40,739 nt of DNA from an uncultured Gammaproteobacteria bacterium. Lineage in GTDB: Bacteria > Patescibacteriota > Patescibacteriia > Patescibacteriales > Patescibacteriaceae. Where the stretch lies: assembly GCA_964451345.1 (NCBI GenBank), contig CAYVHQ010000004.1, positions 1 to 40,739 on the forward strand, written 5' to 3'. Shown piece by piece: positions 5,898 through 21,884 of this stretch. Position numbers and translations under genes: made by a program. Below the pieces are notes generated by a model. It was given only the letters and a program-made list of their open reading frames with translations. It was not told where the DNA came from and made no database searches. How positions within the stretch are numbered: position 1 is the first letter of the stretch; every line of letters begins with the position of its first letter.

Positions 5898-5971
5898 GGT
5901 GACTATAGTTTAATGGTAGAACAGCGGGTTGTGGTCCCGTTAGCGAGGGTTCGATTCCCTCTAGCCACCCA
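5898..5971 (+). tRNA. tRNA-His(GTG)
   Basis: G-1 plus GTGACTA/TAGCCAC-C73, anticodon arm GCGGG-TTGTGGT-CCCGT, T-arm GAGGG-TTCGATT-CCCTC; ends ...GCCACCCA. Confidence 0.95.
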
Positions 5972-5976
5972 GGCAC

Positions 5977-6004
5977 AAAACGCCCCTTTTTAAGGGGTGT
6001 TTTT
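5977..6004 (+). terminator. Intrinsic terminator after tRNA-His
   Basis: AAAACGCCCCTT-TTT-AAGGGGTGTTTTT hairpin with A and T tracts. Confidence 0.85.
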
Positions 6005-6125
6005 GTATTTTAGAGAGTCTCCACAGAATTTCCATTTTTTGTCGTTTCGGGATTGTGACCGTATTGTGACCTAAAAGAGCTTTCCATGGTAATTACTTTA
6101 AACTATAGGCAATATAGGTTTATTA

Positions 6126-6154
6126 TTGACATTAATTAAGAAATATGCTATATT
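6126..6154 (+). promoter_or_regulatory. Sigma70 promoter of the first cassette gene
   Basis: TTGACA-17 bp-TATATT with extended TG. Confidence 0.75.
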
Positions 6155-6306
6155 AAGAAATCAATCAAACGTTCTTAGATAGTAGGTTATAACCAAAAGA
6201 TTCGTATTCAAGTAGGGATTTTCTGGCTGTGACCACAAGGGTCGTAGTTCCCGCCTGCGGACAGTGGGCAAAATCTGGGCAAACAGTCCAACAAACTACA
6301 TTAACA

Positions 6307-6924
6307 ATGAAATATCCAAAACTCAACCTAGGCCAAATGGAGGCTATGGTTAACAAACTTGGCGGGATGGCGGGAGTAAGCCATTTTCTGTCAGGCGCAT
6401 CATCAGTCATTACAACCACTTCTCTTTATAAGAAATTTACAACATGGAAGACTGTTGAAATTGGAAAATATTCGGAAGAAGAATACTACGAAATGCTTAA
6501 AAATGTTTGCAGCAGCAAAAATAGTGTCACTGCCAAATCGCTAAGTCATATTATTTTTTTAGCTTCAAAGCATAAAAATGTTGACTTAGCTTTAGTAAGC
6601 AATATTGATTTAGGTTTCAATTCAAGCACAACTCAAAAAGAAATATATGAACGTGCACTTTCTTTAGGTTTAAAATTTTGTGGAATTGAAATCGCATTAG
6701 CATTGCGTTTGCAATATCTTGACCAGCCAAAAAATGAGACAATAAGAATGGCAATGGAATATATAAGTATGTCAGAAGGCGAGGGAATCTTTCTTCTCTC
6801 TTCTAGTGCTGATCAACTTGATATAAGGCTTTATCCTCATGAAAACCAGGATAAGTGTTATAGAGGCGATGACCCTACTACATACGCAAAATATGTTTTT
6901 GTAATACCTCCCAAGAACGATTAG
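6307..6924 (+). CDS. Hypothetical protein (family recurrent in CPR)
   Basis: LGQMEAMVNKLGG...IYERALSLGLKFC.IEIALALRLQYLDQP. Start placed at ATG 6307; followed by a terminator at 6948-6985. Confidence 0.75.
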   Translation: MKYPKLNLGQMEAMVNKLGGMAGVSHFLSGASSVITTTSLYKKFTTWKTVEIGKYSEEEYYEMLKNVCSSKNSVTAKSLSHIIFLASKHKNVDLALVSNIDLGFNSSTTQKEIYERALSLGLKFCGIEIALALRLQYLDQPKNETIRMAMEYISMSEGEGIFLLSSSADQLDIRLYPHENQDKCYRGDDPTTYAKYVFVIPPKND

Positions 6925-7039
6925 TTTAAATAAATCAACAATATTTACCCTATCCGCAGAGATTTTACGGATAGGGCGTTTTTTTACCTAAAACTTAAAA
7001 GTTGTCCAGCCAATTAGACAAATCGCCCAAACGTTGTAA

Positions 7040-7072
7040 GTCCAAAGTCCTGAACACCTCACACAATTCACC
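7040..7072 (+). repeat. 33-bp junction repeat, copy 1
   Basis: GTCCAAAGTCCTGAACACCTCACACAATTCACC, then hairpin AAAATGCCCCTTTTACGGGCTGTTTTT. Confidence 0.97.
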
Positions 7073-7146: not shown

Positions 7147-8226
7147 ATGACAATATTCCAAAAAACATCACTATCTTCTCTAGCAGGAAGCATTCCAGCC
7201 ATCGCCGTCATTATTTTGTTGCTCAGCATAACACATGGTTATATTAATCTAGATATGAGTTTAGGCGCCGGATGGTTATTAGCTATGTTCATCTTTTTTG
7301 TTCTCCCTTTTATATTGGTAATCATATATTTCTGGCTCTTTAGATATACGTGGAAGAAGCTATCTATTAGTAACGCAGCAAGCACCATCACAGATTTCCG
7401 TTGGAAATATGCAATCGTTTCATTTTTCTGCATGGTTATTATAATAGGCTGCGCCTCATGGGCAGTTGATGCATATATTATCTATCACCAAAAGACTATT
7501 AGTACGCATAATCAGATTGCCAGAGAAAATGAAAAGCAAAGATTGATCAATGAGAAACTGCGGATTCAGAAACCGCTTGCCGCCCAAGAAACTCCCAATT
7601 TCATCGCCACGAAAGCTGAGGATGTTATCTATAAGGGAGAAACGTATCCGACGATACGGATTGGAGGCCAACGCTGGTTCGCCAAGAGTCTGAATGTGCC
7701 AACAATCAACTACAATGATTGTAAAGAATATTGGGATAGTAAGAATTGCCCGCTTTACGGCGTTTATACGTGGCACGAAGCAATAAACTTACCCGCCGGA
7801 GAAACGCCAGATGGTACTAAATTAGTACAAGGAATCTGTCCAACGGGTTGGCACATTCCAAGCCACGAGGAATTCCTTATTCTCGAAACGACACTCATGC
7901 CTAACTGTGGACCAAATCGGCCGATTGAATATGCAGAGGCTAGTTTTTCATGTATACCAGTTGGTGACATGTTGAAAAAAGAAAAGAATTGCTTCGGGCA
8001 ACAAAATTGCAATCGTTCGCTCTTCTCTATGGAGACATCGGAGTATGAACAAAGCCATCGGACAAAATTCAACCTTCAAGGAAATGAAGGGTATGTATGG
8101 ACAAGCACTAAGGCACCGCTTTATGGATCCATTATTACTCGTGGTTTTTCCGACTTAGATGCCGGAATAAAAATTGAAGCTATTAACACAGGAGATAAGG
8201 GCCAAGTTCGCTGTCTGCAGGACTAG
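7147..8226 (+). CDS. Membrane-anchored FISUMP (Fib_succ_major) domain protein
   Basis: Three TM helices, then YPTIRIGGQRWFAKSLN, YTWHEA, QGICPTGWHIPSHEEF, WTST, VRCLQD. Confidence 0.9.
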   Translation: MTIFQKTSLSSLAGSIPAIAVIILLLSITHGYINLDMSLGAGWLLAMFIFFVLPFILVIIYFWLFRYTWKKLSISNAASTITDFRWKYAIVSFFCMVIIIGCASWAVDAYIIYHQKTISTHNQIARENEKQRLINEKLRIQKPLAAQETPNFIATKAEDVIYKGETYPTIRIGGQRWFAKSLNVPTINYNDCKEYWDSKNCPLYGVYTWHEAINLPAGETPDGTKLVQGICPTGWHIPSHEEFLILETTLMPNCGPNRPIEYAEASFSCIPVGDMLKKEKNCFGQQNCNRSLFSMETSEYEQSHRTKFNLQGNEGYVWTSTKAPLYGSIITRGFSDLDAGIKIEAINTGDKGQVRCLQD

Positions 8227-8385: not shown

Positions 8386-8694
8386 TTACATAATCCCTAC
8401 AACTGTCCCAAAAATGACCGCTGGAAATACGTACATAATATACCCGCTCTGACTCGGAAAAACCATGATCATTATCGATGCCAGGATGACCGCGACAGCG
8501 ATTCCGCACCATATTACATCGTTTTCTGAATTATCTTCTCTGAGTTTTCCTGCTACTAGTGCCGAAACTAAAAAAACCAGAGAGAAAACAATTGACAGAC
8601 TGAGCGGCATTAGAAAACAAATTGAGCCGAATACCGCTATCGTTGCTACGATAACCGTCGGAAACCACGGCAGCCTAATTGATGGATTTAGCAT
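8386..8694 (-). CDS. Small four-TM hypothetical membrane protein
   Basis: 102 aa, almost entirely hydrophobic; promoter-like sequence upstream and hairpin downstream. Confidence 0.7.
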   Translation of the reverse strand: MLNPSIRLPWFPTVIVATIAVFGSICFLMPLSLSIVFSLVFLVSALVAGKLREDNSENDVIWCGIAVAVILASIMIMVFPSQSGYIMYVFPAVIFGTVVGIM

Positions 8695-8840
8695 TTATAC
8701 CTGCCTTGAATGATTTAATTATTAAATGAACTAATAAGCTAAATTAACACTTTTTTTAGCGCATCGTCAAGAACAACCATTAATGGATAATAAAAAAGGT
8801 CAACCATACAGTTGACCCAGAAAACGAGAGAGCGCATTGA

Positions 8841-9089
8841 TTATTCTAGCCAGTCTAAGTCCTTTAATGTTTGGCATTCATCGCACAGTTTTTTAGGCGG
8901 AGTTATATAACTTTCCGGTTTTGTGTCTGCTAATGCACCACAAGCTTTACAATAAAAATACATTGGGGATCCTGCTCTCAAGGAAGCATTATTTATTTTC
9001 TCCTTTGTAGCATTTTCTGTACGTCGGTCTTCTAAAGCTTTTAAGGCAGCTTCCTTTCCCTTTGTCGTTGCGAGATTAGTGTTCTCCAC
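8841..9089 (-). CDS. Small Zn-ribbon protein
   Basis: CKAC...CDEC. GTG start at 9089 after a GGAG SD; promoter TTGACA-17-TAGTGT at 9174-9146. Confidence 0.75.
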   Translation of the reverse strand: MENTNLATTKGKEAALKALEDRRTENATKEKINNASLRAGSPMYFYCKACGALADTKPESYITPPKKLCDECQTLKDLDWLE

Positions 9090-9218
9090 TTTTGCTCCTG
9101 TTAAGTTATTGATTAAATAATATTTATTAAAGTCCTTAATAGCCCACACTACTACTTAATTAGTGTCTTGTCAATATTATTTGTTAAACCGTTTAGACGG
9201 GCCATCTGTTGTATTTAA

Positions 9219-9253
9219 GTCCAAAGTCCTGAACACCTCACACAATTCACCCA
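9219..9253 (+). repeat. Junction repeat, copy 3
   Basis: GTCCAAAGTCCTGAACACCTCACACAATTCACCCA, then TTCCGAAAATTCAGGCTCAGAAGGCCTGTTTTTT. Confidence 0.97.
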
Positions 9254-9383: not shown

Positions 9384-9974
9384 TTATAGATAAGCATTTT
9401 TAACCGCCTTGCTAATTGTCTCGTCAAGAGTAGAGTAAAGCGGCCAAATACATCCATTATCCTCATTGAGGTTAATCTTTATCTGCTTTATTCCATCAAA
9501 TCCTTCTTCGGCACCGATAACAAACATCTCAAAAAACTGGTCCCATCTTTCTGGACGTAATGCATTTCTCACGCTCCAGCGCCCAATTTCTGCACGGGTA
9601 TCTCTTGCATAACTACCGTCTTCATTTCTACGAGGATTTTTGACATCTTCTAATGGAAGCCAGAATATAATTGTACCTTTTTCTGATGCAATTTTTAAAT
9701 AATATCGCTCCCAAGATGTTTGGCTTTCGAATGACCCAAGACTATGTTCTTTGCTGTTGTCTGATAAAGAATACTTATATAGCTCATGACTCTCATCATA
9801 ACGTGCAGGACAGGCAATATAACAACCTGGATCCTTTTTCGAAAGCTCAAGAATAGCTTCCTTGTGCCAATCGCCACCTCCCAGAATTGGTCCCGCTAGG
9901 AAATATACTTTTTTCCCCTTACGGCCAAAATCCGGATCATGGTAAATAGTTTTTGGAAGAATTAAATTTATCAT
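9384..9974 (-). CDS. Nucleoside 2-deoxyribosyltransferase-like protein
   Basis: YFLAGPI...DW, QTSWE, IIFWLP, TRAEIG motifs of the NDT-like (Nuc_deoxyri_tr2) fold. Confidence 0.75.
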   Translation of the reverse strand: MINLILPKTIYHDPDFGRKGKKVYFLAGPILGGGDWHKEAILELSKKDPGCYIACPARYDESHELYKYSLSDNSKEHSLGSFESQTSWERYYLKIASEKGTIIFWLPLEDVKNPRRNEDGSYARDTRAEIGRWSVRNALRPERWDQFFEMFVIGAEEGFDGIKQIKINLNEDNGCIWPLYSTLDETISKAVKNAYL

Positions 9975-10002
9975 TTTGTTTTTGTTTTTTATTAAACAAA
10001 TT

Positions 10003-10512
10003 TTATTTTAGATTTAATCTATCCAAGATTTTTTCTCTTGCAATTATCTTAGATAGATCGTCCGCAACTTCAGGAAGTCCTTGTAGGTCAAGTTCGGCGG
10101 GCACGGCGATCATCTGCATGATGCCTCCATACTCGATACTCTTTTCTTTGTGATGCCACGTGCCAACCCAGTACTCAGTCTCACCGACAACTTTTTCCAG
10201 GAATAAGTCATGGGTAATAACCCAGCGTTTTTTTTCATACTTCTTAGTAAAGCATAAACGCTTCTTTTCCGTATTCACAGCTTCCTTTTGTGGTGGATCA
10301 ATAAGTTTTATTACTGAATGCCCAAAAGGATCCACGCAGGCCCCTACTTTTAGCTCTTTGCTAAAATTTCCGTAGAATATCGCCCATTCAACTTCTGACT
10401 TCTTGGCGGATTTACCCATGATAGATGAGAAAAAACCGCTCATCTTATGCGCTGGAATAAATAGTTCTCCACGAACTAAATAATCTTTTTTATTAGATTT
10501 TGAAGATTGCAT
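10003..10512 (-). CDS. Hypothetical protein
   Basis: 169-aa ORF with GGAG SD and TTGACA promoter (10566); probably co-transcribed with the NDT gene. Confidence 0.7.
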   Translation of the reverse strand: MQSSKSNKKDYLVRGELFIPAHKMSGFFSSIMGKSAKKSEVEWAIFYGNFSKELKVGACVDPFGHSVIKLIDPPQKEAVNTEKKRLCFTKKYEKKRWVITHDLFLEKVVGETEYWVGTWHHKEKSIEYGGIMQMIAVPAELDLQGLPEVADDLSKIIAREKILDRLNLK

Positions 10513-10615
10513 GATGCTCCTTGTTTAATTTACCCTAACATAACCCTACTTTTCATATTCTGTCAAGAGTTGTTTTCTAATCATTTTAGAAAATCATCAG
10601 TTGAATTCCGAGGAG

Positions 10616-10643
10616 AAGTCCTGAACATCTCACACAATTCACC
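10616..10643 (+). repeat. Junction repeat, copy 4 (first 5 bp diverged)
   Basis: AAGTCCTGAACATCTCACACAATTCACC, then perfect hairpin AAAACGACCCCC-GCGGT-GGGGGTCGTTTT. Confidence 0.95.
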
Positions 10644-10692
10644 TATAGTAAAACGACCCCCGCGGTGGGGGTCGTTTTTAATTGTAATAACA

Positions 10693-11046
10693 TTATTTTG
10701 CTGGCGACTCTTCTCTCTTTTTTCTAAAATATTTTATGTAAAAATATCTAATGGCATATATAATAGTCAAGAGAATGAAGGTGGGAATAAAGAAAATTAA
10801 GAAATTCAAAAATTCATAGATGTACAGTGTCGAATCTGTCAAAAAATCATCATTTAATTGTAGTTGGCCGGGGTAACCTATGACATACAGATACTTGCTA
10901 TCGGCTGCAGACGTCCCGCACCAACCACCGACCGGGCAATGGTTTTCTCTGACCTGAAAATGCTGAACCTGCAAAACCGCAAAAATTACAAACGCCAACA
11001 GAGCGCTCCAGCCCATCAATTTTCTCGTTGTCCTAACAAAAGCCAT
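10693..11046 (-). CDS. Small two-TM hypothetical protein
   Basis: TM-loop (CPVGGWC...IGYP)-TM, basic tail. Confidence 0.7.
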   Translation of the reverse strand: MAFVRTTRKLMGWSALLAFVIFAVLQVQHFQVRENHCPVGGWCGTSAADSKYLYVIGYPGQLQLNDDFLTDSTLYIYEFLNFLIFFIPTFILLTIIYAIRYFYIKYFRKKREESPAK

Positions 11047-11186
11047 AAGTGTAGGTTACTACCTGTTCATATTATATATATTTTACGCCACTAAGTATAT
11101 ATTTCAAAGCACGAAATCAAAGCAATCTAAAAATAGAAGAGGGACGTTTTTAATTTGGTAATTGGTATAAAATGGTATCCCTACCA

Positions 11187-11224
11187 ACCCATTCCAAAAA
11201 TTCGGGACCGAAAGGTTATTTTTT
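11187..11224 (+). repeat. Degenerate junction (ACCCA core plus eroded hairpin)
   Basis: ACCCATTCCAAAAATTCGGG resembles ACCCATTCCGAAAATTCAGG of copy 3; the 33-mer is absent. Confidence 0.6.
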
Positions 11225-11231
11225 ATAAATT

Positions 11232-12794
11232 TTACGCTTTATATTTTGCTCTAAAAACGAGAGAAGACACAAAACCAACCAGCGCAAAAGGGCTACCCAA
11301 TAACGGGATCAAGGAAACGATTCCCAGCCCCAATAAAACACTCGGCCAGCGATTATTCATGAATTCATCCTTGGTGAGCGCTTGCTGCTTTTGATGAATG
11401 ATTGTATGGAGCGCCATGACTGAGCCTACAAAGTTAATTCCGGGTATAAAGGCGATACCAAACATTACCGCCAGACTGCCATAATACGAATGCATAGCCT
11501 GCGGCGCTGTCGCTCCGATACCTAAATAGCTTTTCGTGCCCTGAAGGGTTTTATTCTCAGCCCCATCTCCCAAAGGCCCTGCATTAAGCGAAGCCTGCTT
11601 GTAATACACTTGTTGCACGATTACCTGCTGGACTAAGTAACCAAACGCAATGACAAAAGCCCCTACGAGAAATCCCATAGCTTCGGGCGATACGTTGAAA
11701 AACATATTAATAAAAAACAGCAGCAACAGGGAACTTACAAGTCCTCCAAAACCGAGACCTAAATGCGGCTTCATAATCCGAAAAGGCATTGAAGTCTTCA
11801 AATATTCTATATAACTTTGATCCTTAAATATTCCATAGTAAAAAAAGCTTGTTCTTTTCTGCAGTTCCATAAACGGCTTTAAGCTGAAAAGGTAGTTAAA
11901 GGTCAAGATCATACCCAACCATACTGGAAAGAATACAAACACATTGAGGAATCCTAAATTCTGCAAGATAATAAGCACAGCGAGACTTATAAAAATTGAA
12001 TAACTTATCCGTATTGTTGAATACGCGGCTAATTTTTGTATCCCGAAAAGTGCTTGTGATTCTTTCCCCGCCATATCCGCCACCTGTGCCATGTTTGTCT
12101 GATCTCGGTCTCCCAGCAAAAAAATATAAAGCTTGGCTGTGTAAATCAACTGCTTGTTGTTTAGCAGTTTTTGGCCTTCCTCGTTATTAGAAAAAGCCTT
12201 TAAGGATTGTAAGAAAAAATCGATACTAAAACTTACCTGGAAAGCAGCGAATTCCAATAATTTTTGGCGGCAGAGCCGAGAGACTTCAAGGAGAGAGAGA
12301 TCCTGGCCTCTAAAATAATTAATATACGTAAGAGCCGAAAACATCGGATTACGCACCGGGATAATAAAATAAAATATTTGGTTGGCAGCCAGAACAAGAA
12401 CATTAAGACCTCCGACCATCCAGACCAGATTCCAATTCACGCTTTCAATAGGCACTCTAGCGGTTTTCCAAAATACATAAAAAAAGACCAGTAGGCACAA
12501 TCCCTGCACGACGCTCATCCAACGAGCCAATCTATACTCCTGGAGGACCGCCTTGGGATATGACTCCTTTGAAACTGGCGATACAGAGCCCTCCCCAGTG
12601 CCAGAAACAGGTGTTGTCAAAACTATTTCTGACGATCCGGGCGCGGACCCTCCAGAATGTATTTGAGCTAAACCGGCCTCTACTTCATCCATAGGCCACC
12701 CAGCCTTTAGCAGTACTTCCCTAATCTGTTGCGAGCCGACACCTTGGGACTGGCAATCATGTATATAGTCGATCACGCTCTGGGAAATTTTCAT
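11232..12794 (-). CDS. Polytopic membrane protein with CPR-type N-terminal helical domain
   Basis: DYIHDCQSQG...IREVLLKAGWP..EV motif, Ser/Gly linker, many TM helices; start at M13 of the tracked ORF. Confidence 0.8.
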   Translation of the reverse strand: MKISQSVIDYIHDCQSQGVGSQQIREVLLKAGWPMDEVEAGLAQIHSGGSAPGSSEIVLTTPVSGTGEGSVSPVSKESYPKAVLQEYRLARWMSVVQGLCLLVFFYVFWKTARVPIESVNWNLVWMVGGLNVLVLAANQIFYFIIPVRNPMFSALTYINYFRGQDLSLLEVSRLCRQKLLEFAAFQVSFSIDFFLQSLKAFSNNEEGQKLLNNKQLIYTAKLYIFLLGDRDQTNMAQVADMAGKESQALFGIQKLAAYSTIRISYSIFISLAVLIILQNLGFLNVFVFFPVWLGMILTFNYLFSLKPFMELQKRTSFFYYGIFKDQSYIEYLKTSMPFRIMKPHLGLGFGGLVSSLLLLFFINMFFNVSPEAMGFLVGAFVIAFGYLVQQVIVQQVYYKQASLNAGPLGDGAENKTLQGTKSYLGIGATAPQAMHSYYGSLAVMFGIAFIPGINFVGSVMALHTIIHQKQQALTKDEFMNNRWPSVLLGLGIVSLIPLLGSPFALVGFVSSLVFRAKYKA

Positions 12795-12854
12795 ACATAT
12801 CCATATATAATAATGCCTATATTTTAGCATAAGAGAACCAAGACTTTAATTGCC

Positions 12855-12889
12855 ATCTAAAGCCCTAAACACCTCACACAATTCAACCA
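12855..12889 (+). repeat. Junction repeat, copy 5 (most diverged full-length copy)
   Basis: ATCTAAAGCCCTAAACACCTCACACAATTCAACCA, then AAAACGGCCCCTTAATGGGCTGTTTTT. Confidence 0.93.
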
Positions 12890-12984: not shown

Positions 12985-13803
12985 ATGCTACACCAACCAT
13001 CCGAATTTGCAGCCAGCGTATTAAGAATACTCGATCAAGCGAGTAGTATAGTGCTCAAATATTTTCAAACTGTCTTGGACGTAGAATTTAAAAGGGACGA
13101 ATTTGATCCTCTGACTATTGCGGATAAAGAATCGGATTACTTCATCCGAAATTCCTTGCATGAACTATTTCCGCATGATTTACTGCTTTCTGAAGAAAAT
13201 CCTCTGCTTCCTGAAACATACAATGGAAGAGTTTGGATGATTGATCCGCTTGATGGCACGAAGTCATTCATTAAGGGAAGTGATACTTTTTCAATTAACA
13301 TCGGCCTCGTGGAAAATGGAGTCCCAATTTTTGGCTGTGTCGCTATTCCGGCGCAAGGTAAAGTATTTTATGCCGAAAAAGGGAAAGGCGCGTTTCGCAA
13401 AACAGATGAAAGCTTTGAGGCAATCCATACATCATCCATCCAACAAATCGAAAACGCTCGCCTCATCACGCGCGAAGGCAATAAGGACGTACGGCCTATT
13501 GAAGAAAAACTCAATACCATTCCTTTTTATGAACGCATTACCGGCGGTGGGATAGGCGAAAAGCTCTGCAAAATAGCCGAAGGCGTCGCTGAAGCTCAAA
13601 TCAATACGAACCGTGCTTGTAAATGGGATACTGCCGGAGTACAAGTCATTCTTGAAGAAGCTGGTGGAGTTATTACTGACTTTGATAATAATCGATTAAA
13701 TTACAAAAGTGATTCTGTGGTTTTAGAAAGAAGTTTTGTTGCTTCTGCCAATAAAGAACTGCACGAAGTATTAATAAAAGAATTGAGAGGGCTCGAGATT
13801 TAG
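12985..13803 (+). CDS. cysQ: Inositol monophosphatase family / CysQ-like 3'(2'),5'-bisphosphate nucleotidase
   Basis: PLTIAD, LSEE, WMIDPLDGTKSF, WDTAG..ILEEAGG. Confidence 0.88.
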   Translation: MLHQPSEFAASVLRILDQASSIVLKYFQTVLDVEFKRDEFDPLTIADKESDYFIRNSLHELFPHDLLLSEENPLLPETYNGRVWMIDPLDGTKSFIKGSDTFSINIGLVENGVPIFGCVAIPAQGKVFYAEKGKGAFRKTDESFEAIHTSSIQQIENARLITREGNKDVRPIEEKLNTIPFYERITGGGIGEKLCKIAEGVAEAQINTNRACKWDTAGVQVILEEAGGVITDFDNNRLNYKSDSVVLERSFVASANKELHEVLIKELRGLEI

Positions 13804-13905: not shown

Positions 13906-15147
13906 CTATCTCACATATATATGGGCTTGCCGCACCAGATCGTCAGGGATAAAACATTCTATTTCCTCTAACTTCTCCCTCACTACTCTTTGAAAATCGG
14001 CGAAGACTTGATAATCGGTAAAAGTTATTGTCTCTTGCGGGTCCTCCGGATAATCAACCGTAAAAGATGCCTCGTTGTCATTGAAGCTATTTAATACCGC
14101 CCGATAGACCCTGAAACCCGGCATTTCCTGCCCGGACCCATCCCGCCAATAACAAATTGCATCTATTTCTGAAGTTATCTTCGTAACAGTTATCGGGTCA
14201 AGGTCAAGGTAATGGATAAAATCAATACGAGACAGAATACGTTTTTCTTCGCCCGTTATTCCCTCAAAAGTCTGCGACACCTTGGCCGAAAAATGCTCAC
14301 GGTGCAATAAAACAATTCCACGCGTTTTATAGGGGTCATCGAAATCATAATTCGAGCCTACTTTGATCTTTTGCAGAAAGTCCTGGAAATCCTTTTGGCA
14401 GCCTTGATAATCATCCGCTAATATCTGTATGGAATTGCGTATGTCACAGAGCCATTGTCCTGAAGGTCCTTCTTCAAGGGACTTGCAAATACAAGTAGAC
14501 CAATCATCCATAGTGCCGGCTTTAGCTGCCATGGCCATGAGCTTGAGAAATGCTTTAATACGTTGAAAATCCAACGGGTCAACAAAACGCAAACTAACTC
14601 CGTCAAAAGGCGAACTTTGGACAGCCTGCTTAGTATTGTTAAAGACAAAACCCGTACCCTGATTTTGCAACTGAGTATCAAAACAAACGAGCGGATAACT
14701 CACATTAATATCTTTGTCATCAACAGACGACGTAGCCTGAATCTCCAGAATGATCTGTAAAGATACTACAGGATTTCCATTTTTCTCGTCCTTCACTAAT
14801 TCTTTTCTGCCAATTAGCCGCAGCTCTTCCAGATGTATTTCTTCTGGTTCATCAAGATCCTCTTGCTCAACTATCACCCGACCAAGAGGGGGAATGTCAT
14901 TAATAAATGATAGCTTACTGGTAATGTTAAGCAGATCTCGCGCCTGTTTGCCGGCCTCGGTTTCCAGCATCTCAAGGTGGGTTGCCAGGTCAAGGTAAGG
15001 CATTGAGAATAGAACAGTTTCGCGCACAGTTTCTAGGCTCAGGGCCTGTATATACCGTTTCTCTAAAAAGCTTTCCAGCCACCTGTTTGCCTCCGCTTTA
15101 AGCGCTTTTTTCTTCTTGAAGAATTCTTCAATTTCACGCTTGTTCAT
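13906..15147 (-). CDS. Hypothetical acidic protein (413 aa)
   Basis: AGGAGG SD before ATG 15147, promoter TTGACT-17-TAGTTT; no motif recognised. Confidence 0.8.
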   Translation of the reverse strand: MNKREIEEFFKKKKALKAEANRWLESFLEKRYIQALSLETVRETVLFSMPYLDLATHLEMLETEAGKQARDLLNITSKLSFINDIPPLGRVIVEQEDLDEPEEIHLEELRLIGRKELVKDEKNGNPVVSLQIILEIQATSSVDDKDINVSYPLVCFDTQLQNQGTGFVFNNTKQAVQSSPFDGVSLRFVDPLDFQRIKAFLKLMAMAAKAGTMDDWSTCICKSLEEGPSGQWLCDIRNSIQILADDYQGCQKDFQDFLQKIKVGSNYDFDDPYKTRGIVLLHREHFSAKVSQTFEGITGEEKRILSRIDFIHYLDLDPITVTKITSEIDAICYWRDGSGQEMPGFRVYRAVLNSFNDNEASFTVDYPEDPQETITFTDYQVFADFQRVVREKLEEIECFIPDDLVRQAHIYVR

Positions 15148-15248
15148 GCTCCTCCTTTTTCTATGTTTAAAAATTGTTAAAGTTCTGATGATACAAACTA
15201 ACATTATTCTTTTGCTTAGTCAATGACAATAAGCTTCTTTAAAGTACC

Positions 15249-15283
15249 GTCCAAAGCCCTGAACACCTCACACAATTCACCCA
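15249..15283 (+). repeat. Junction repeat, copy 6
   Basis: GTCCAAAGCCCTGAACACCTCACACAATTCACCCA. Confidence 0.97.
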
Positions 15284-15332
15284 TTAATAAAAAAGGCCTT
15301 ATCCCATATGAGAGATAAAGCCTTTAAATAAT

Positions 15333-16061
15333 TTAATCACGCAGTAGCAAAATCTTTTCCGTGACTTCACGACACTGGTAACCTAATATTTCTTGCACAT
15401 ATTTATTCAGGTCATTATGATTGACATATGAAAGATTATAGCCAAGGAACAGCAGCTCGCTAATAGTATTATAATAGACTTTCTTTCTGCCCCTCCCTGT
15501 TTCCATTTCCGTTCCTATGTTAAGAGAGCCATTATTCTCAAGTAATACTCTTAGGAACAAGGGGCCAATTATTTTTAGATAAAAAGACAGACTGGCTTCT
15601 CTGCTAAACGCTTGGAGCAATACCCAAATTTCCTTTTTTACTCCGTCCAAATACGTGTCCTCTTCAGATGGCTTTTGTCTTGCATCCCAATTTTCACAAT
15701 CCTGGTTTGCCAGGCAGAGACAATTTTGTATAGCAACAAAATGGAATTTCATCATTGTTGCTTGATCATATATTTTATAACTATCATTCTCGCCTCCGCG
15801 CGCCACTGCTGAGCATATTTCGAGCTGAGCAAGGCCTTGCTGAGGAGTCATTCCTTCTTGGGGCAAATATATTTCCAACTCAGGCGGCAAAACTATGCCA
15901 TCCAGAGCTTTCCACTTAGCGGCAACGAGTACGCCGTTTTCTTTTTTTGCCTCGGATTCAATTTCGCGACTGCAGACATGCATTTTGAAATCAGGTAATG
16001 TAATACCAAAGAATTCTTCCAATAACCTGATCTTGCTATTTTTAACTTGTTTTTCTTCCAT
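15333..16061 (-). CDS. Hypothetical protein
   Basis: Start at M25 of the tracked ORF; promoter TTGACA-17-TAGATT and hairpin leader upstream. Confidence 0.75.
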   Translation of the reverse strand: MEEKQVKNSKIRLLEEFFGITLPDFKMHVCSREIESEAKKENGVLVAAKWKALDGIVLPPELEIYLPQEGMTPQQGLAQLEICSAVARGGENDSYKIYDQATMMKFHFVAIQNCLCLANQDCENWDARQKPSEEDTYLDGVKKEIWVLLQAFSREASLSFYLKIIGPLFLRVLLENNGSLNIGTEMETGRGRKKVYYNTISELLFLGYNLSYVNHNDLNKYVQEILGYQCREVTEKILLLRD

Positions 16062-16299
16062 TTTTATCTTATTTGATTGTTTAGTAGTTAGGGTGGTTTT
16101 CTCTGCCCTCAGAAAGACCAAAGAAAACCACACTAATCAACAATTTTATAAGGAACGGGATTGCTCAATCTATCATTTTTTGTTTATTTTGTCAACAGCT
16201 TAGGCCAATTAATAATGTACCTATGTTCACCCCGCTAGGACAGAAAATACCATTTGCAGTGGGTTTTGTTATAGGAAATTCCTCATGTATAATAAAGCT

Positions 16300-16863
16300 A
16301 TGGAAAACATCATAGACCAAGTAAAACTCGCAGCCCTTGAAGAAATCAAGAAATTCGGCACGCCGAAACTGGAGCACTTCTTTTTAGCCAATGCCAAGGG
16401 ACAAGAATTAGCTGAAAAACTAAATGCCGACAAGAACATCGTTTTACTCGGCACGATACTGATGGACTTCAAACTAGGCCAATGTTTGTCGAAGAACCGT
16501 GTCGCCGACCACATTAAAGAATCTGACGATGCCGCAAAATCCTTATTGATAAGCCTGGGGTGTGAAGAAAGATTTGTTCAAAAAGTCACTGCCTGTATTC
16601 AATCGCATCACGGCCAAAAAACTTATCCCAGCCTTGAGGCAGAAATCTGCGCTAATGCTGACTGCTATCGCTTCTTAAGCCCGGCAGGATTCTTTAACGG
16701 CTTCATGCTTTTTTGTAATCGCGGATTAAGTATTGAAGAATGCCTCAAAAATGTCGAAGCTAAAGTTGACGAAAAACGCTCAATTATATCGCTTGATATT
16801 TGCAAAGCGGAAACGGAAGCATACTACCAAGAGATGAAAGATTTGCTGGCAGGGGCTCAGTGA
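16300..16863 (+). CDS. HD-domain-like phosphohydrolase (HD motif reads MD)
   Basis: EH...ELAEKLNAD..IV.LG.ILMD...H...CIQSHH...SLEAEICANAD follows the HD-fold pattern. Confidence 0.75.
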   Translation: MENIIDQVKLAALEEIKKFGTPKLEHFFLANAKGQELAEKLNADKNIVLLGTILMDFKLGQCLSKNRVADHIKESDDAAKSLLISLGCEERFVQKVTACIQSHHGQKTYPSLEAEICANADCYRFLSPAGFFNGFMLFCNRGLSIEECLKNVEAKVDEKRSIISLDICKAETEAYYQEMKDLLAGAQ

Positions 16864-16905
16864 TCAGTAGACACACCGTCTAGCTTAGCTTTCGCATTCG
16901 TGCCG

Positions 16906-16942
16906 TTCCGAAAATTCAGGCTCGAGAGGCCTGTTTTTCTTT
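16906..16942 (+). repeat. Copy of the junction hairpin of copy 3
   Basis: TTCCGAAAATTCAGGCTCGAGAGGCCTGTTTTTCTTT. Confidence 0.85.
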
Positions 16943-17085
16943 GTAGTTACAGTGATTTTCAGTACACCCATAGAGGGATGGAAAAATCAAATAAAAGAGC
17001 CACGATATTCCTACCGTGGCATACGTATATAAATCATTATTTCCGCTGAAGCGTAAGATAGCTATGAGTTGGTATTATATGGTTT

Positions 17086-17592
17086 CTATTCTTTCAATGG
17101 CTCTTGTTTTGATTTCGTGACATTAAGCAATATGACCACGGAAATCAAGCTTAATATAAAACAAATAGCAAGCAAAGAATAATAGACATAATCAAAAGTA
17201 GGCTTTTGCGTCAGCCAACTCCAGCTCGTGCCCGTGATTCCACAATATAGAGCTATTGGTATTGTTATTACCAACACTATCGGGAAAAACATTGCGTAAA
17301 ATAAGCTAAGAATTCTGGCTACTTTAATGCGTTTAATTTCCTGATCGTTAAACTTTTGATGGGATATTCTCTTATCAACTATAAAAAGTATAGTCGCGAA
17401 TGAAACCAAGAAGAATCTGTCCACAATCCAATACAGCAAATTCTCAGCCGTAGTATTGGGCTCGGAATCTACCGTCATATATTTTATAAAAGAATAAAAC
17501 AACAAAACTACCAAATAGCCTATGGCTGTGTTGCGAAAATAATTATCTGTGCCGGTTGCTGCTTCCGGGCTTGGCGCATTTATATTATTCAT
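17086..17592 (-). CDS. Four-TM hypothetical membrane protein
   Basis: Start at M18 of the tracked ORF; promoter TTGACA-17-TAATCT upstream. Confidence 0.75.
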   Translation of the reverse strand: MNNINAPSPEAATGTDNYFRNTAIGYLVVLLFYSFIKYMTVDSEPNTTAENLLYWIVDRFFLVSFATILFIVDKRISHQKFNDQEIKRIKVARILSLFYAMFFPIVLVITIPIALYCGITGTSWSWLTQKPTFDYVYYSLLAICFILSLISVVILLNVTKSKQEPLKE

Positions 17593-17760
17593 ATTATTTA
17601 GGTTTTTGTTTAGATTAGTATTCTCTGCTTCGAGGCAAAGCAAGGAACACTAATCTAAAAGTCCCTAAAGATTGTAAAAGTGCCAATTTTGCAGATTAGC
17701 ATTATTCTTATGTTTTGTCAATAACCACGTAAAGTCTCAGTCTCTAAGCCGCACGGTGAC

Positions 17761-17786
17761 AAAATGGCCCTTTATGGGCTGTTTTT
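17761..17786 (+). repeat. Exact copy of the junction hairpin of copy 2
   Basis: AAAATGGCCCTTTATGGGCTGTTTTT, identical to 8304-8329. Confidence 0.9.
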
Positions 17787-17853
17787 ATTATCATTCATAA
17801 TGGACGGAAAACTCACTGCTGCTATATACTAAGATAAGAATGCCAGTTAAAAT

Positions 17854-18261
17854 ATGCATATGCAAAATTATTCACTTACTTCAGCCTTTGAAGCTAGTAA
17901 AAACGATGACTTGAAGAACTGGGCTATTTCATATCTGAATAGTGAAGGGAACAATCACGGACTTGCACAGATTATTCAAAACACTCCCTGCAAACACATA
18001 GAGTTAACCGAAGCTCCCCTACATGGTCTGATCAGAATTTGCGGCCCTGAAAAAGGAATGGCTTTCCCCGAAGACATCTCTGTATGGGAATCGCGAATAT
18101 CAACTCTTCGCCAAGCAATCAATAGTGGAATTGAATTACCTCCTTTGATAATCACTGATTTTTGGGAAGCCTCGCAAATTTCTGACGGAGCCCACCGATA
18201 CGAAGCATTGATAAGAAATGGGATCACTAAGTACTGGGCAATCTTTTTTGATAGAGAATAG
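17854..18261 (+). CDS. Stand-alone ParB/Srx-like nuclease-domain protein
   Basis: LPPLII...ISDGAHRYEAL. Confidence 0.8.
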   Translation: MHMQNYSLTSAFEASKNDDLKNWAISYLNSEGNNHGLAQIIQNTPCKHIELTEAPLHGLIRICGPEKGMAFPEDISVWESRISTLRQAINSGIELPPLIITDFWEASQISDGAHRYEALIRNGITKYWAIFFDRE

Positions 18262-18310
18262 TGGTTTTAGAAAAAAAGAACTGTTAATTTCTTAACAGTT
18301 CAAAATACAT

Positions 18311-19027
18311 TTAAAAAAGAGCTTTTGGTTTTGGAATATTTTTTAATAAATCTATTGATATTTTCTTTGTATGCTGATTCGTACTATTAACCACCGTCAC
18401 ATCTAGCAGGTTTTTTCGCGGTCCTTTTCTGTAAACTTTTTTAATGATTATATTATCAAGATGGTTTACGGAAAACTCAGCCAAGAACATTTCCTCAGGA
18501 ATTTGCCAGTACGGCTGGTTTTCTTTTATAAGCAACACATACCATTGGCGGGTACAACCCTCGAAGCTAACCTTTGCCTCGATATTTCTGACTAAGAGGA
18601 TGGCCGAGTTTCTCGAAATAACTTTCAGGTGCTCTCTGCGGAAAAAATAAAAAATATGTTCCGATAGCAGTTTTTTCATTGAAGCGTTAAATGTTTTTCC
18701 AAAGCCATTATCATCATAGTTTTCGCGAAGTTTCGCTAGCAACCACGTATGAAATTTTTTCTGTATTGTCTCCATTGTTATCGAGAGACAGCAATCATTA
18801 TCTACGAGAGTTATCGCCTTTTCTCTTTCTAATTCTTTTCTCTCTTTCTCCTCCCAATACTGTCTGCTTTCTTCTCGTCGGGCAGACTCTCGGCTACTGC
18901 CATAGTAGGATCGTCCCATAAAGCTCAAGGTATGCGGACTAGAAAAAGCAGGCGTATATTCGCTCGGGAATAACACGGCCATAAGAAATTCCTCAACTAC
19001 TCTACAAATTGTTTTAATTATTTTCAT
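18311..19027 (-). CDS. Hypothetical protein
   Basis: 238-aa ORF with a long, hairpin-rich upstream region. Confidence 0.65.
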   Translation of the reverse strand: MKIIKTICRVVEEFLMAVLFPSEYTPAFSSPHTLSFMGRSYYGSSRESARREESRQYWEEKERKELEREKAITLVDNDCCLSITMETIQKKFHTWLLAKLRENYDDNGFGKTFNASMKKLLSEHIFYFFRREHLKVISRNSAILLVRNIEAKVSFEGCTRQWYVLLIKENQPYWQIPEEMFLAEFSVNHLDNIIIKKVYRKGPRKNLLDVTVVNSTNQHTKKISIDLLKNIPKPKALF

Positions 19028-19388
19028 AACATGTTCCCAGATTCACTATGGTGTGAATTTTCCCGTCCTTTTCGCGGGGGTTTATAAACTGGGTTTGTAA
19101 AGGTACAAAAAAGCTCCTGTAGGGAGCTAATGGTTGAGTTATGAGATTAAACAACGCAAATATCAGCCCCTTACATAAGAGAAGCCGAAATAAAAGATTG
19201 AAGTGTTAGTCCGGAATTGCATAACAAAGATATTACTACATAATATAGAAAATGTCTAGATGTGAAAAAATTAAAAACCAGATACCGCTCAAAAACAGCT
19301 CTTCAAATTTGTTTTTGTTTATAGTAAAAGCTATGTATACTTATACTGAGACTAATTTATAAGATTGTTCAGTATTTTCCCCAAAATT

Positions 19389-19898
19389 ATGCAAATAATC
19401 ACTATTTATAATAACGAAAAAGTATCAGAAGAAGAGCTCGTTTCTTTTCATCATAGACAAAAGACTCGAGGTGTTATTTTTGATGACAAACACAATATAG
19501 CCCTCCTTCACATAGAATCAAAAGGCTACTACAATCTCCCAGGCGGCGGCGTAGAGAAGGGCGAAGATACGCGCCAGGGCCTCATCCGAGAATGCCGGGA
19601 AGAGATCGGCTGCGATATTGAAATAACCACTGTGTTAGGCAAGACACTCGAATACCGCAAAGAAACCAACATCATAAATGAATCTTACGGCTATATAGGA
19701 ACCGTCAAAGGGCAGAAAGGAGATCGGATACTGATGGGCGATGAGAATGAGGCGGAAAGAAATTGCGTTATTGTCTGGGTCTCTTTGACCGAAGCAATAC
19801 GGCTTATGGAGAATACGCCTCCGCCCAAACGCTTATACAGCCAATATATTCTGGCCCGCGATTTGGCCTTCTTGAAAAAAGCTCAGGAAATTATTTAA
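19389..19898 (+). CDS. NUDIX hydrolase
   Basis: Nudix box PGGGVEKGEDTRQGLIRECREEIG. Confidence 0.92.
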   Translation: MQIITIYNNEKVSEEELVSFHHRQKTRGVIFDDKHNIALLHIESKGYYNLPGGGVEKGEDTRQGLIRECREEIGCDIEITTVLGKTLEYRKETNIINESYGYIGTVKGQKGDRILMGDENEAERNCVIVWVSLTEAIRLMENTPPPKRLYSQYILARDLAFLKKAQEII

Positions 19899-21751
19899 TC
19901 CTTCTTAATCGATTTCCACTCTTCTTCCAGCTTTTCCCATTCAGCGCGGTTATCAAGGATAAAGCGGTGGATTCTTTGGATGCGGTCCTGCAAGGCGTAG
20001 TCGAATTTAGCATTGCCATGCGGTCCTTCTTTGTGGGCCGCCTCGTGTACGTAGGTATGAAGGGCATCGGAAAGGGGCTGGTCGAACGACTCACGCGACA
20101 TCCAATAATACAGAGAATTGTACTGCCCGGCCAACGCGCTCTGTTCTTCCTTGGCGCTAAAGATCCAGACGTCCTTCAGTTCGTCCTCAGGAAGCTCTAA
20201 TAAGCGCGAAGCCTTCTTAAGAATGGCGATCTTCTGCTCCTCCCCGGGCCGCGTCTCGACCCGGCTATGCGCCTGCCAAACCCTAAATTGGTCCATCGCT
20301 CCCTTCATGCCGATTTTTTTCATATATCCGCGGCAGAATTTGAAGCCTTGGCTCTTCAGCGCGTCGCGAATCCAGTCTGCTCCCTGCGGCACATCGCTGG
20401 CAACGTATTCATTTTCAAATTCCAGGGTCGTCTTGCTTTGCGCTAATTTGTTGACCATTTGCTCTAATAATTCATCACTCACTGAATAGATATCTATATG
20501 CGGCCAGAGCGGCTTAAAATCGTAGACAGATTTTTTCAGGTCAGCTTCCGTCATGGAAGAGATGATCAAAGGCAGCACGTCTTTTGTCATCTCTTGGCGG
20601 GTGATCATACCCCGGTCTCTGTCCTTTGGCTGAATTTTTCTCCAGGTCCAAACATTTAAATCGCTGATATTTTCCCACTTGTCCCGAGTATCATAATGAA
20701 TCCGCTGCCCAGCCAAGTAAACATTACCCTTGCTGTGATTATCCCAGAATGATGCCTTTTCGTTTAATGGCAAAATCTGAAAACCGCCGCTGCTCTTATC
20801 ATTAAAACTGGGATTATAAAAGTCCGGGTTTTCGCTGCTATAAAACAGCTCTTTCGCCTTCTCAAATAATTTAAGCTTTTCCTCGGCTTCATCGCCCTCG
20901 AAAACTATTTCCAGATAATTGCCTATCTCGTCTTTCCGTCGACCCTTCTTGGCATACAATCCCTGGATCGATTTTCGGTAGGCTTCAGAATTCACGTCAT
21001 CAAAATAATAGTCTATCTCCCAGTCGCGCGAGGCGGCCTTAACCCGCTTGGCGCCATGTTCCTTAAGCAGCACGAAGGCGGCGATCTTCAAACCTTCCCC
21101 GAAACCGCCGACAGACGTATCAGAATCGGTTTTCGTGGTCCCGCCGAAATGGATAAGCTCGCGCCAATCATAATCCTGCGGTGCCTCGAACCGAACCTTG
21201 CCGACTTTCTTTTCTCCTTCCTTGGTCGCTACTTCTTCAATACTAGTATTTATACTTACTCCGTCCAGCGTTTGGCCGTTAGCGTCAAAAAAATTCTGCA
21301 ACGCGTCCCGGCTCACTTTTTCCAAATCCCAGTTCACGCCATATGTTTCCAAGAGATTTAGATAATGCCCTTTCTCGACCTGCTTTTCAAAGCTTGTGCC
21401 GTCGATATTATTTTTCAAAAGCTTGGCAACATTCCTATTGGCCCGGGAATCCTTCCCGAGAAAGCTTAAGGTTCGGAACGTGCCTTCGCCGAGCGTCTGA
21501 TCGACTAATTTTGCCAAGCCCAAAGCCTCGCTGTCACTGCCTATGGAGTTAATGTATGCTTCCGCCAGCTGGGGTGTTGCGAACATATCCTTATGGCGTT
21601 CGCTTAACTGAAGGGCTAAGGACTGACGAATTGTATTATCGGCCTTGAGCCGTTCGGCAATACCCACAAGCTGTCCGGTTTCCTCAGAAGCAGACTCTGT
21701 CTTCGGTGACTGGCCACCGGCTTCGGTTCTAAACATCTTAAAAAGATTCAT
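19895..21751 (-). CDS. GHKL-like ATPase domain plus C-terminal HExxH protein
   Basis: RDALQNFFDA (N-box), GGTTK...VGGFGEGLK (G-box), YVHEAAH..GPH. Confidence 0.65.
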   Translation of the reverse strand: MNLFKMFRTEAGGQSPKTESASEETGQLVGIAERLKADNTIRQSLALQLSERHKDMFATPQLAEAYINSIGSDSEALGLAKLVDQTLGEGTFRTLSFLGKDSRANRNVAKLLKNNIDGTSFEKQVEKGHYLNLLETYGVNWDLEKVSRDALQNFFDANGQTLDGVSINTSIEEVATKEGEKKVGKVRFEAPQDYDWRELIHFGGTTKTDSDTSVGGFGEGLKIAAFVLLKEHGAKRVKAASRDWEIDYYFDDVNSEAYRKSIQGLYAKKGRRKDEIGNYLEIVFEGDEAEEKLKLFEKAKELFYSSENPDFYNPSFNDKSSGGFQILPLNEKASFWDNHSKGNVYLAGQRIHYDTRDKWENISDLNVWTWRKIQPKDRDRGMITRQEMTKDVLPLIISSMTEADLKKSVYDFKPLWPHIDIYSVSDELLEQMVNKLAQSKTTLEFENEYVASDVPQGADWIRDALKSQGFKFCRGYMKKIGMKGAMDQFRVWQAHSRVETRPGEEQKIAILKKASRLLELPEDELKDVWIFSAKEEQSALAGQYNSLYYWMSRESFDQPLSDALHTYVHEAAHKEGPHGNAKFDYALQDRIQRIHRFILDNRAEWEKLEEEWKSIKKD

Positions 21752-21847
21752 AAGAAGGGTTTTACGCAGTTCTTAAAGCTATTTAAATAGTAGGACTTTT
21801 TCTCACATTCTACAACCCGAACCCGCCTTGGCCGAAGTTCATTGTCG

Positions 21848-21884
21848 GAAAATTCAGGCCCAGAAGGCCTGTTTTTTCTTTTAC
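21848..21884 (+). repeat. Last copy of the junction hairpin, upstream of alaS
   Basis: GAAAATTCAGGCCCAGAAGGCCTGTTTTTTCTTT, one mismatch to 9258-9291. Confidence 0.85.

What the first reader, a model, noticed from the sequence alone, without database searches (positions are those of the whole stretch)
5967..21884. tRNA-His-anchored array of integrase-less gene cassettes delimited by a 33-bp site plus terminator
Seen: six same-orientation copies of GTCCAAAG(T/C)CCTGAACA(C/T)CTCACACAATTCACC (7040, 8264, 9219, 10616, 12855, 15249), 0.95-2.4 kb apart, always intergenic. They end in CACC, CACCCA or AACCA, like the tRNA-His end (GCCACCCA). Copies 1, 2 and 5 are followed by hairpins clearly related to the tRNA-His terminator; the others by other hairpins. 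Between sites lie one or two unrelated genes in either orientation, mostly with their own promoter. No integrase or transposase lies inside. Known: islands integrating at tRNA 3' ends leave attR = element arm + core + former tRNA flank. Inference: each unit [terminator-cargo-arm-CACCCA] is a mini element serially inserted at the tRNA end, pushing older units rightwards. Functionally this would be integron-like, but with a tRNA as the entry site and no attC. I do not recognise it as a described system.
Basis: partly seen in the sequence, partly recalled or inferred. Interest (0 to 1): 0.92.

Follow-up and report, generated by a model that had tools for sequence, protein, structure and literature searches.

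The report
Serine-integrase scar stack behind tRNA-His
The six repeats are real and spell, on the opposite strand, the last codons of a serine recombinase; they are likely scars left each time such an element inserted at the end of the histidine tRNA gene, and they bound small recombinase-free gene packets that differ between close relatives and are likely carried in and out by a visiting helper element.

Summary
The array is real: six same-strand copies, all behind tRNA-His, none elsewhere in the genome. The site is not an attC or REP. Read on the minus strand it is the C-terminal tail (GELCEVFRTLD) of a large serine recombinase (LSR) family that reads antisense into tRNA-His. Two relatives (G139, G058) carry whole 9.4-9.5 kb elements with the LSR at the tRNA and the same kind of tail at the far end, and unsplit homologues end in that tail. 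A sister species has four copies with wholly different cargo; contigs from one study join tRNA-His to the third flank exactly at CACCCA. This genome encodes no LSR; unit 1 begins with a tyrosine-integrase remnant, so it arose by deletion. Best reading: accretion of LSR elements leaving CIME-like passengers, as in Dehalococcoides ssrA islands; single-cassette mobility in trans is not shown. The scan found this layout before in other CPR genomes; seven paper searches showed no description for CPR. New variant of a known kind.

The parts
5898..5971 (+). tRNA-His(GTG); its 3' end CACCCA is the inferred attB core
   Evidence: ARAGORN 5899-5970; LSR genes of relatives read antisense into this end
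5976..6004 (+). terminator-like hairpin behind tRNA-His; same flank follows copy 3 of G004
6010..6072 (-). last 20 codons and stop of a tyrosine integrase that is whole at this place in G004 (P0001); includes the direct repeat TTGTGACC x2 (arm-type site is my inference)
   Evidence: tblastn 90% identity, E 2e-5
6229..6924 (+). unit 1 cargo, 231-aa ORF, no family hit
6995..7072 (-). site 1: 33-mer at 7040-7072 and LSR tail frame of 25 codons to a stop
7147..8226 (+). unit 2 cargo, 359-aa Fib_succ_major (FISUMP) domain protein
   Evidence: PF09603, TIGR02145
8264..8298 (-). site 2 with core, followed on + by a tRNA-type hairpin
   Evidence: (best hit, E 2e-5)
8386..9149 (-). unit 3 cargo, two 102-aa ORFs
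9219..9253 (-). site 3 with core; contigs of two runs join tRNA-His to the flank behind it at CACCCA
9384..10512 (-). unit 4 cargo, 196-aa and 169-aa ORFs, no family hit
10611..10645 (-). site 4 (left end diverged); its flank is shared with G004 copy 4
10693..12830 (-). unit 5 cargo, 117-aa and 532-aa ORFs; a possible decayed junction (ACCCA plus weak hairpin) lies between them near 11187
   Evidence: (D4)
12855..12889 (-). site 5 (four mismatches); its flank is shared with G004 copy 1 (90% over 107 nt)
12985..15204 (.). unit 6 cargo: inositol-monophosphatase/CysQ-like gene (+) and 432-aa ORF (-); possible junction of another type near 13833
15249..15283 (-). site 6 with core, followed by a different hairpin
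15284..19388 (.). distal variable part without intact sites: five ORFs, a possible decayed site near 16230 and orphan flanks near 16905 and 17760

Best explanation
The six repeats encode the C-terminal tail of a large serine recombinase on the minus strand and are likely attR scars of elements that insert at the CACCC(A) end of tRNA-His, and the recombinase-free units between them are likely remnants that a helper element sitting at the tRNA would carry in or cut out as passengers. Mechanism, step by step. (1) Shown in relatives: the LSR gene ends in the tRNA; whole elements have the LSR at the tRNA and the tail at the far end. (2) Inferred: in the circular element the att site lies inside the last codons of the LSR gene, so insertion splits the gene, and the tail lands in front of the old tRNA flank and terminator. 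(3) Shown for unit 1, inferred for the rest: deletions remove the recombinase body and leave [host-type flank - cargo - tail]. (4) Inferred: a later element inserts at the tRNA again; ordinary attL x attR excision to any downstream tail removes the helper with or without passenger units, always leaving tRNA plus a terminator, and the circle can deliver those units to another cell. The identity of the site (steps 1-2) I put at about 0.95; the confidence given is for the whole, including step 4.
For: All 13 ELC-type sites tested translate in one minus-strand frame as GELC(E/D)(V/M)FR(T/A) or a one-residue variant; 6 of 11 distinct substitutions are synonymous against 21% expected, P 0.009. G139: tRNA-His, a 504-aa LSR (PF00239+PF07508+PF13408) reading into it, and the site WGELCDVFRTIDW 9.4 kb away. 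G058: the same layout, tail MGQLCDTFRT 9.5 kb away. 5 of 121 proteins examined (the G139 LSR and its best 120 of 1408 homologues) end in a G-x-LCD-x-FRT tail, among them P0161, 86% identical; W-x7-R[TIAS] occurs in 8 of 121, other spacings in at most 2. The last 70 aa of P0161 searched against the whole genome give five of the six copies as the top five hits. The five closest genome hits all abut tRNA-His. Window arms read outward match LSR-side arms at 8-11 of 18 positions but their own flanks at 3-6. Hairpins behind the sites sit at host-flank distance (loop about 18-27 nt from CACC in 10 of 11 positions; the script picked a second hairpin for site 3), not at the 35.5 nt seen in 5 of 5 LSR left ends. 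Shared flanks lie in a different order in G000 and G004 with different cargo. Joint 5965-to-9248 with 6 shared letters in 2 of 8 runs. No LSR in G000.
Against: No cognate LSR was found in any of the 20 genomes of this genus (best genus hits 38% identical and at tRNA-Gln), so the helper is inferred from other families of the order. No recombination was assayed. The synonymy signal is shared by the plus-strand frame with the same third positions (P 0.019), six frames were tried, and the sites are related. The arm symmetry is modest (9 of 18 in G139, tied with another offset; 7 of 18 in G058) and the offset was chosen after looking. The joint comes from one study, at depth 4-5, and may be a related strain or species, or the state before units 1-3 arrived. 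Unit 1 shows decay in place; non-synonymous changes and a damaged core in copies 1, 4 and 5 fit dead scars. Flank order could also be shuffled by homologous recombination.
Confidence: 0.55

Rival explanations
1. Same origin of the sites, but the array is a dead pile: each unit is what remained after an LSR element decayed in place, and units are not moved again.
For: Unit 1 is a deletion hybrid with a tyrosine-integrase remnant. G004 copy 1 lies 9 nt behind a tRNA-end fragment, a unit with no cargo. G008 keeps only the last codons of another LSR family at tRNA-His. Copies 1, 4, 5 have damaged cores; further decayed junctions lie distally. No LSR in the genome.
Against: None of the ten G000/G004 sites is followed by the LSR-side arm that simple decay should often leave; they are followed by host-type flanks. 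Shared flanks are not collinear between the sister species. A joint at the core exists in the population.
Confidence: 0.22
2. One reading: each unit excises alone between two neighbouring sites and reinserts at the tRNA end, using the LSR in trans, as an integron-like cassette store.
For: Units are small (0.96-2.4 kb), start with a host-type terminator and end in a conserved arm. G006 has a 0.5-kb one-gene unit directly between the tRNA end and a tail. Cargo turns over completely between genomes 93% identical. Other contigs carry the site with other neighbours.
Against: It needs attR x attR excision and attR x attB insertion, which serine integrases do poorly (recalled, not tested). No unit is shared between G000 and G004. 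Unit 1 is a deletion hybrid.
Confidence: 0.14
3. The sites began as LSR scars, but present turnover is RecA-type exchange with incoming DNA, using the 60-70 nt of site plus terminator as homology.
For: Site plus hairpin gives 65-70 nt at 80-87% identity between copies. Similarity between G000 and G004 flanks runs 40-230 nt past the core and then stops at unrelated places.
Against: The tRNA-to-flank-3 joint has only 6 shared letters, too few for homologous recombination (general knowledge).
Confidence: 0.07
4. An integron-like array run by a tyrosine recombinase: the Xer-like gene at 3904-5106 or the tRNA-His tyrosine integrase of G004.
For: A tyrosine recombinase gene lies 0.8 kb upstream; a tyrosine integrase sits at tRNA-His in G004 and G011.
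Against: The upstream gene scores 236 bits as XerD and 118 against a cut-off of 265 as integron integrase and is present at this place in genus members with no such sites. The sites have no hairpin and no paired attC cores. The G011 tyrosine element leaves 44-nt displaced tRNA halves, absent from this window.
Confidence: 0.02

Closest known systems
Dehalococcoides ssrA-specific genomic islands with the serine recombinase DsiB (McMurdie et al. 2011, PMC3146451; 12 passages read)
   Same: About 500-540-aa serine recombinase on the reverse strand whose 3' end overlaps attL; tandem islands behind a stable-RNA gene; 15 islands lack an integration module and are proposed to be cis-mobilisable by accretion.
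   Different: Target there is ssrA, boundaries are 20-bp repeats of the target, islands are larger and have a six-gene module. Here the target is tRNA-His, identity with the target is only 5-6 nt, the visible repeat is the recombinase tail, and units are 1-2.4 kb.
CIMEs and site-specific accretion (review PMC5704250; 12 passages read)
   Same: Three steps: integration, decay to an element without integration and transfer genes but with att sites, then integration of a new element next to it; tandems can excise and transfer together.
   Different: The worked examples in the passages read use tyrosine integrases in Streptococcus; in those passages serine-recombinase IMEs insert inside dispensable genes, not at tRNA ends. 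Here both ends of a unit look attR-like.
SCC/SCCmec composite islands (CcrAB/CcrC) (named in PMC3146451; modular layout recalled)
   Same: Large serine recombinases; stacked modules bounded by short repeats, some without ccr genes (recalled).
   Different: The cognate LSRs score 72-76 bits against a CcrB cut-off of 900; target is tRNA-His, not rlmH; single recombinase gene.
Integrons (recalled)
   Same: Array of small one- or two-gene units of mostly unknown function with fast turnover, entry at one end.
   Different: No IntI, no attC hairpin, genes in both orientations, serine rather than tyrosine chemistry.
Tyrosine-integrase islands in tRNA genes (Islander, PMC4383910; listing and abstract start only)
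   Same: tRNA target with serial insertion; such elements use the same tRNA-His in G004 and G011 and left a remnant at 6010-6072.
   Different: They leave displaced tRNA 3' halves (seen in G011, G013); the six sites here are not tRNA fragments.

Membership tests
Integron | adjacent IntI-type tyrosine integrase | tested here: not met
   118 bits against cut-off 265 (TIGR02249); best models XerD/XerC
Integron | attC: imperfect palindrome with paired RYYYAAC/GTTRRRY cores | tested here: not met
   33-mers fold at 0 to -2.5 kcal/mol; no site has both cores within the 120 nt scanned
Integron | cassette genes mostly in one orientation under a Pc promoter | tested here: not met
   3 plus-strand and 7 minus-strand cargo ORFs in units 1-6; promoters not scanned
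DsiB-type serine-recombinase islands | large serine recombinase with resolvase, recombinase and zinc-ribbon domains | tested here: met
   met in G139 and P0161; absent from G000 itself, 91% complete
DsiB-type serine-recombinase islands | recombinase 3' end overlaps attL and the target gene | tested here: met
   G139 ORF 5125-6639 ends inside tRNA-His 5107-5181; also G058, G082, G146
DsiB-type serine-recombinase islands | ssrA target with 20-bp direct repeat | tested here: not met
   target is tRNA-His; 5-6 nt shared
DsiB-type serine-recombinase islands | six-gene module (dsiA, recF, parB, mom and others) | tested here: inconclusive
   ORF lists of G139 and G058 show other genes; no search with the module genes was run
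CIME (cis-mobilisable element) | no integration or transfer genes | tested here: met
   no such family among cargo ORFs
CIME (cis-mobilisable element) | att sites kept at both ends | tested here: inconclusive
   right ends are tail plus core; left ends are host-type flanks behind the previous core, not LSR-side arms
CIME (cis-mobilisable element) | excision or transfer together with an adjacent element | not testable with these tools
   only assembled contigs were available
SCC elements | Ccr recombinase | tested here: not met
   72-76 bits against cut-off 900
SCC elements | insertion at the rlmH 3' end | tested here: not met
   anchor is tRNA-His
Tyrosine-integrase tRNA island | displaced tRNA 3' fragment at attR | tested here: not met
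   none in G000; present in G011 and G013
REP or dispersed regulatory repeat | dispersed through the genome, palindromic | tested here: not met
   6 of 6 copies within 9.3 kb of tRNA-His; no hairpin

The most novel reading that the evidence does not exclude
A tRNA-anchored, serine-recombinase gene-cassette system of CPR bacteria: recombinase-free units ending in the recombinase's own coding tail are cut out and reinserted one at a time at tRNA-His by a visiting LSR, each bringing a fresh terminator for the tRNA, so that a 1-Mb genome keeps an integron-like store with different chemistry and no resident enzyme.
Probability: 0.2. Interest if true: 0.8.

Novelty: new variant of a known kind. Interest (0 to 1): 0.45.

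Why it matters
It gives a concrete route by which tiny-genome CPR bacteria gain and lose small genes at one locus: two genomes about 93% identical share no cargo gene here. The site is invisible to searches for displaced tRNA fragments, because identity with the tRNA is only 5-6 nt and the repeat is the recombinase's own tail. The work names a cognate enzyme family with both ends of two whole elements, so attP, attB, attL and attR can be tested directly; a serine integrase that targets a tRNA end and swaps its own C-terminus is also of tool interest. The concept (recombinase overlapping att, tandem accretion, module-less islands) is in print for Dehalococcoides, and this scan has met the layout repeatedly, which limits surprise.

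Tried and rejected
Viral contigs: no match to two site patterns and no relative of P0002. The species-representative genome scan found only one contig, the one with G004's four copies. The metagenome scan gave one match inside a coding frame of an unrelated organism with no tRNA in 9 kb; treated as chance. Plus-strand coding (QSPEHLTQF) rejected: stop codons in several copies and no synonymy signal. Tn7-like, IS200/IS605-like and dif-like readings were considered from recalled features and dropped (no TG..CA ends, no hairpin, no arm symmetry inside the 33-mer). First candidate enzyme P0002 (G014; 7 of 10 class hits at tRNA-His) is not the cognate family: no ELC-type tail in the 7 loci fetched around its relatives, none among 150 profile hits, and 26% identity to the G139 LSR. 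Circles: no go-back joint at a site in the 8 of 20 listed runs laid; only contigs were available, so this shows nothing; the one go-back row in X2 is at the edge of the stretch and fits the look-alike flank near 16905. Joints 5971-7090 and 5971-8310 in X3 (side 29-31) were not counted, being likely other organisms' tRNA-His with similar hairpins. No RNA holder listed. No paired tail was seen for G082 and G146 before their contigs end; the rows for G693 and several other loci were cut from the output. The roughly 370-aa gene shared by the G139 and G058 elements has no Pfam or PHROG hit and was not found in 5 genus genomes searched. Cargo: no defence-system hit among unit ORFs. Paper searches (listings only) showed no description of such arrays in CPR; subscription journals are not covered, and no supplements were read (McMurdie's additional files on dsiB overlap could bear on novelty). 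No structure or complex prediction was run.
Full report
1. The observation. The 26-nt core finds six copies, all on the plus strand between 7040 and 15281, and no other place in the 86-contig, 1.05-Mb genome at up to 6 mismatches. tRNA-Arg and tRNA-His lie at 5173-5245 and 5899-5970. Each copy is followed by a hairpin, and units of 955-2394 nt hold one or two ORFs, nearly all without a family hit. The genome is probably a CPR/Patescibacteria member: relatives have 0.6-1.4 Mb at over 90% completeness, and homologues of the recombinase found later carry such names.

2. Relatives. The strict motif occurs in 2 of 61 genomes: this one and G004, about 93% identical in the flanking genes. G004 has four copies in the matching region with different cargo; the two genomes rejoin at the NUDIX gene (window 19389). 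G004's tRNA-His has the same flank as here up to window 6071, then a whole 368-aa tyrosine integrase. The last 20 codons of that integrase survive here at 6013-6072, so unit 1 starts as the left end of a tyrosine element whose body was deleted. Integrases of that family occur in 61 of 301 genomes of the order, commonly next to tRNAs; G011 and G013 show 44-nt displaced tRNA-His halves downstream. This window has no such halves. A looser pattern finds the site in 5 of 316 genomes of the order (6, 4, 2, 1 and 1 copies; reversed-pattern control 0); in each the copies lie in the region downstream of tRNA-His, for G004 across an assembly gap. A related site type occurs three times in G011 and twice in G013.

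3. What the site is. On the minus strand the 13 ELC-type sites read GELC(E/D)(V/M)FR(T/A) with single-residue exceptions; 6 of 11 distinct substitutions are synonymous against 21% possible (P 0.009; the plus-strand frame sharing third positions gives P 0.019; six frames tried). Large serine recombinases are common in the order (181 of 301 genomes, none in G000) and 16 of the 30 best loci have a tRNA at the end of the recombinase frame, read antisense. My first candidate family (P0002) targets tRNA-His in 7 of 10 class hits but has no matching tail. The cognate family came from G139: tRNA-His, a 504-aa LSR whose frame ends inside the tRNA, type III restriction-modification and Panacea-antitoxin cargo, and the site WGELCDVFRTIDW 9.4 kb away followed by a hairpin. 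G058 has the same two ends 9.5 kb apart. The five closest genome hits (65-100% identical; 13 of 316 genomes at E 1e-90) all abut tRNA-His. Among the G139 protein and its best 120 of 1408 database homologues, five end in a G-x-LCD-x-FRT tail instead of a tRNA-derived end; P0161, 86% identical, ends MGQLCDMFRTIDW. Its last 70 residues retrieve copies 2, 3, 6, 4 and 1 as the top five hits in the whole genome (E 2e-5 to 0.044, short-query settings) and copy 5 at E 10. The glycine codon is the complement of ACC in CACC both in the tRNA read-through and in the sites, so the frames agree. The window arms also resemble the LSR-side arms as inverted copies (8-11 of 18 positions, against 3-6 for their own flanks), a modest signal with an offset chosen after looking. 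I conclude (about 0.95) that each 33-mer is the half of attP that codes the recombinase tail, left at attR.

4. How the recombinase-free units arose and move. In 5 of 5 intact left ends the LSR's own codons form a hairpin centred 35.5 nt from CACC; behind the G000 and G004 sites the hairpin is centred about 18-27 nt away (10 of 11 positions by script; for site 3 the script picked a second hairpin), like 6 of 9 native tRNA-His flanks of the genus. Flanks are shared across the two species but in different order: the flank of copy 5 here follows copy 1 in G004, that of copy 4 follows copy 4, and today's tRNA flank follows G004 copy 3. Of 20 runs listed (8 studies, best holders wastewater) I laid 8. 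Two runs of one study hold a contig that joins tRNA-His (5965) to the flank of copy 3 (9248) with 6 shared letters (depth 4 and 4.95; shorter side 22 and 66 nt): an allele or close relative without units 1-3, broken exactly at CACCCA. Other contigs carry the site with other neighbours, one switching right behind 9253. Against easy mobility: no unit is shared whole between G000 and G004, unit 1 is a deletion hybrid, three cores are damaged, no cognate LSR was found in the 20 genomes of the genus, and no circle was seen (contigs only). The reading that needs only standard serine-integrase reactions is accretion: elements insert at the tRNA, decay, and a later helper can excise to any downstream tail, removing or carrying passenger units and leaving tRNA plus terminator (0.55). 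Rivals: dead scars (0.22), single cassettes moved in trans (0.14), homologous exchange (0.07), a tyrosine-recombinase integron (0.02).

5. Comparison with known systems. McMurdie et al. 2011 (PMC3146451, passages read) describe a 540-residue serine recombinase whose gene always overlaps attL, tandem islands behind ssrA, and 15 islands without an integration module proposed as cis-mobilisable. The review PMC5704250 (passages read) gives the integration-decay-accretion scheme for CIMEs. The array works like these. It is not an integron, not an SCC element and not an ssrA island. Seven paper searches (listings only) showed no account of such tRNA arrays in CPR; subscription journals and supplements were not seen. 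Earlier notes of this scan report the same layout at several tRNAs in other genomes; my tail reading was noted, before those look-ups, while the McMurdie lead and the CIME wording came from them and were checked against the papers.

6. Verdict. Observation confirmed; interpretation partly supported; new variant of a known kind; interest 0.45. The added value of this locus is a named cognate recombinase with both element ends, complete cargo turnover between sister species, and a population joint at the core.

Noticed in passing
window 5898-5969: The tRNA-His acceptor stem has an A-C mismatch (5902/5965), shared by G004, G007, G011 and G013, while G010 has the pairing base; it may reflect replacement of the 3' half by an incoming element.
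   Followed up: no
window 5841-5895: A 27-nt-arm hairpin lies directly upstream of tRNA-His (I14).
   Followed up: no
window about 11187, 13833, 16230, 16905, 17760, 21845: Further junction-like places: ACCCA or CACCCC plus hairpin without the 33-mer, and orphan copies of site flanks; the one near 13833 resembles a junction in G004.
   Followed up: partly
L141 (G006), 0.5 kb behind tRNA-His: A single 155-aa gene starts a few bases after the tRNA end and is closed by an ELC-type tail and a terminator, with no recombinase remnant; more junctions of another tail type follow, also in G009.
   Followed up: partly
L045, L130 (G011) and L047 (G013): Mixed arrays behind tRNA-His: 44-nt displaced tRNA halves nearer the tRNA and serine-recombinase tails (GGKWDVFRT type) further out, bounding 1-3 kb integrase-free units.
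   Followed up: partly
L052 (G008) tRNA-His flank; L051 (G014) 5435-7063: G008 keeps the last codons of a second LSR family at tRNA-His; G014 has a whole LSR of that family that stops 60 nt before the tRNA.
   Followed up: partly
   Followed up: partly
G000 C59 1085-2155: A broken tyrosine integrase of the P0001 family (2 stops) next to tRNA-Glu; a second partial tRNA-Glu lies on C46.
   Followed up: no
window 19365-21751: NUDIX gene with a weak PADLOC PDC-S07 hit and a 618-aa gene with a weak phrog_6077 hit, both shared with G004.
   Followed up: no
L042-L044: The record title of the contig with G004's copies says Gammaproteobacteria, although G004 is placed in this small-genome genus; probably a mislabelled record.
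   Followed up: no
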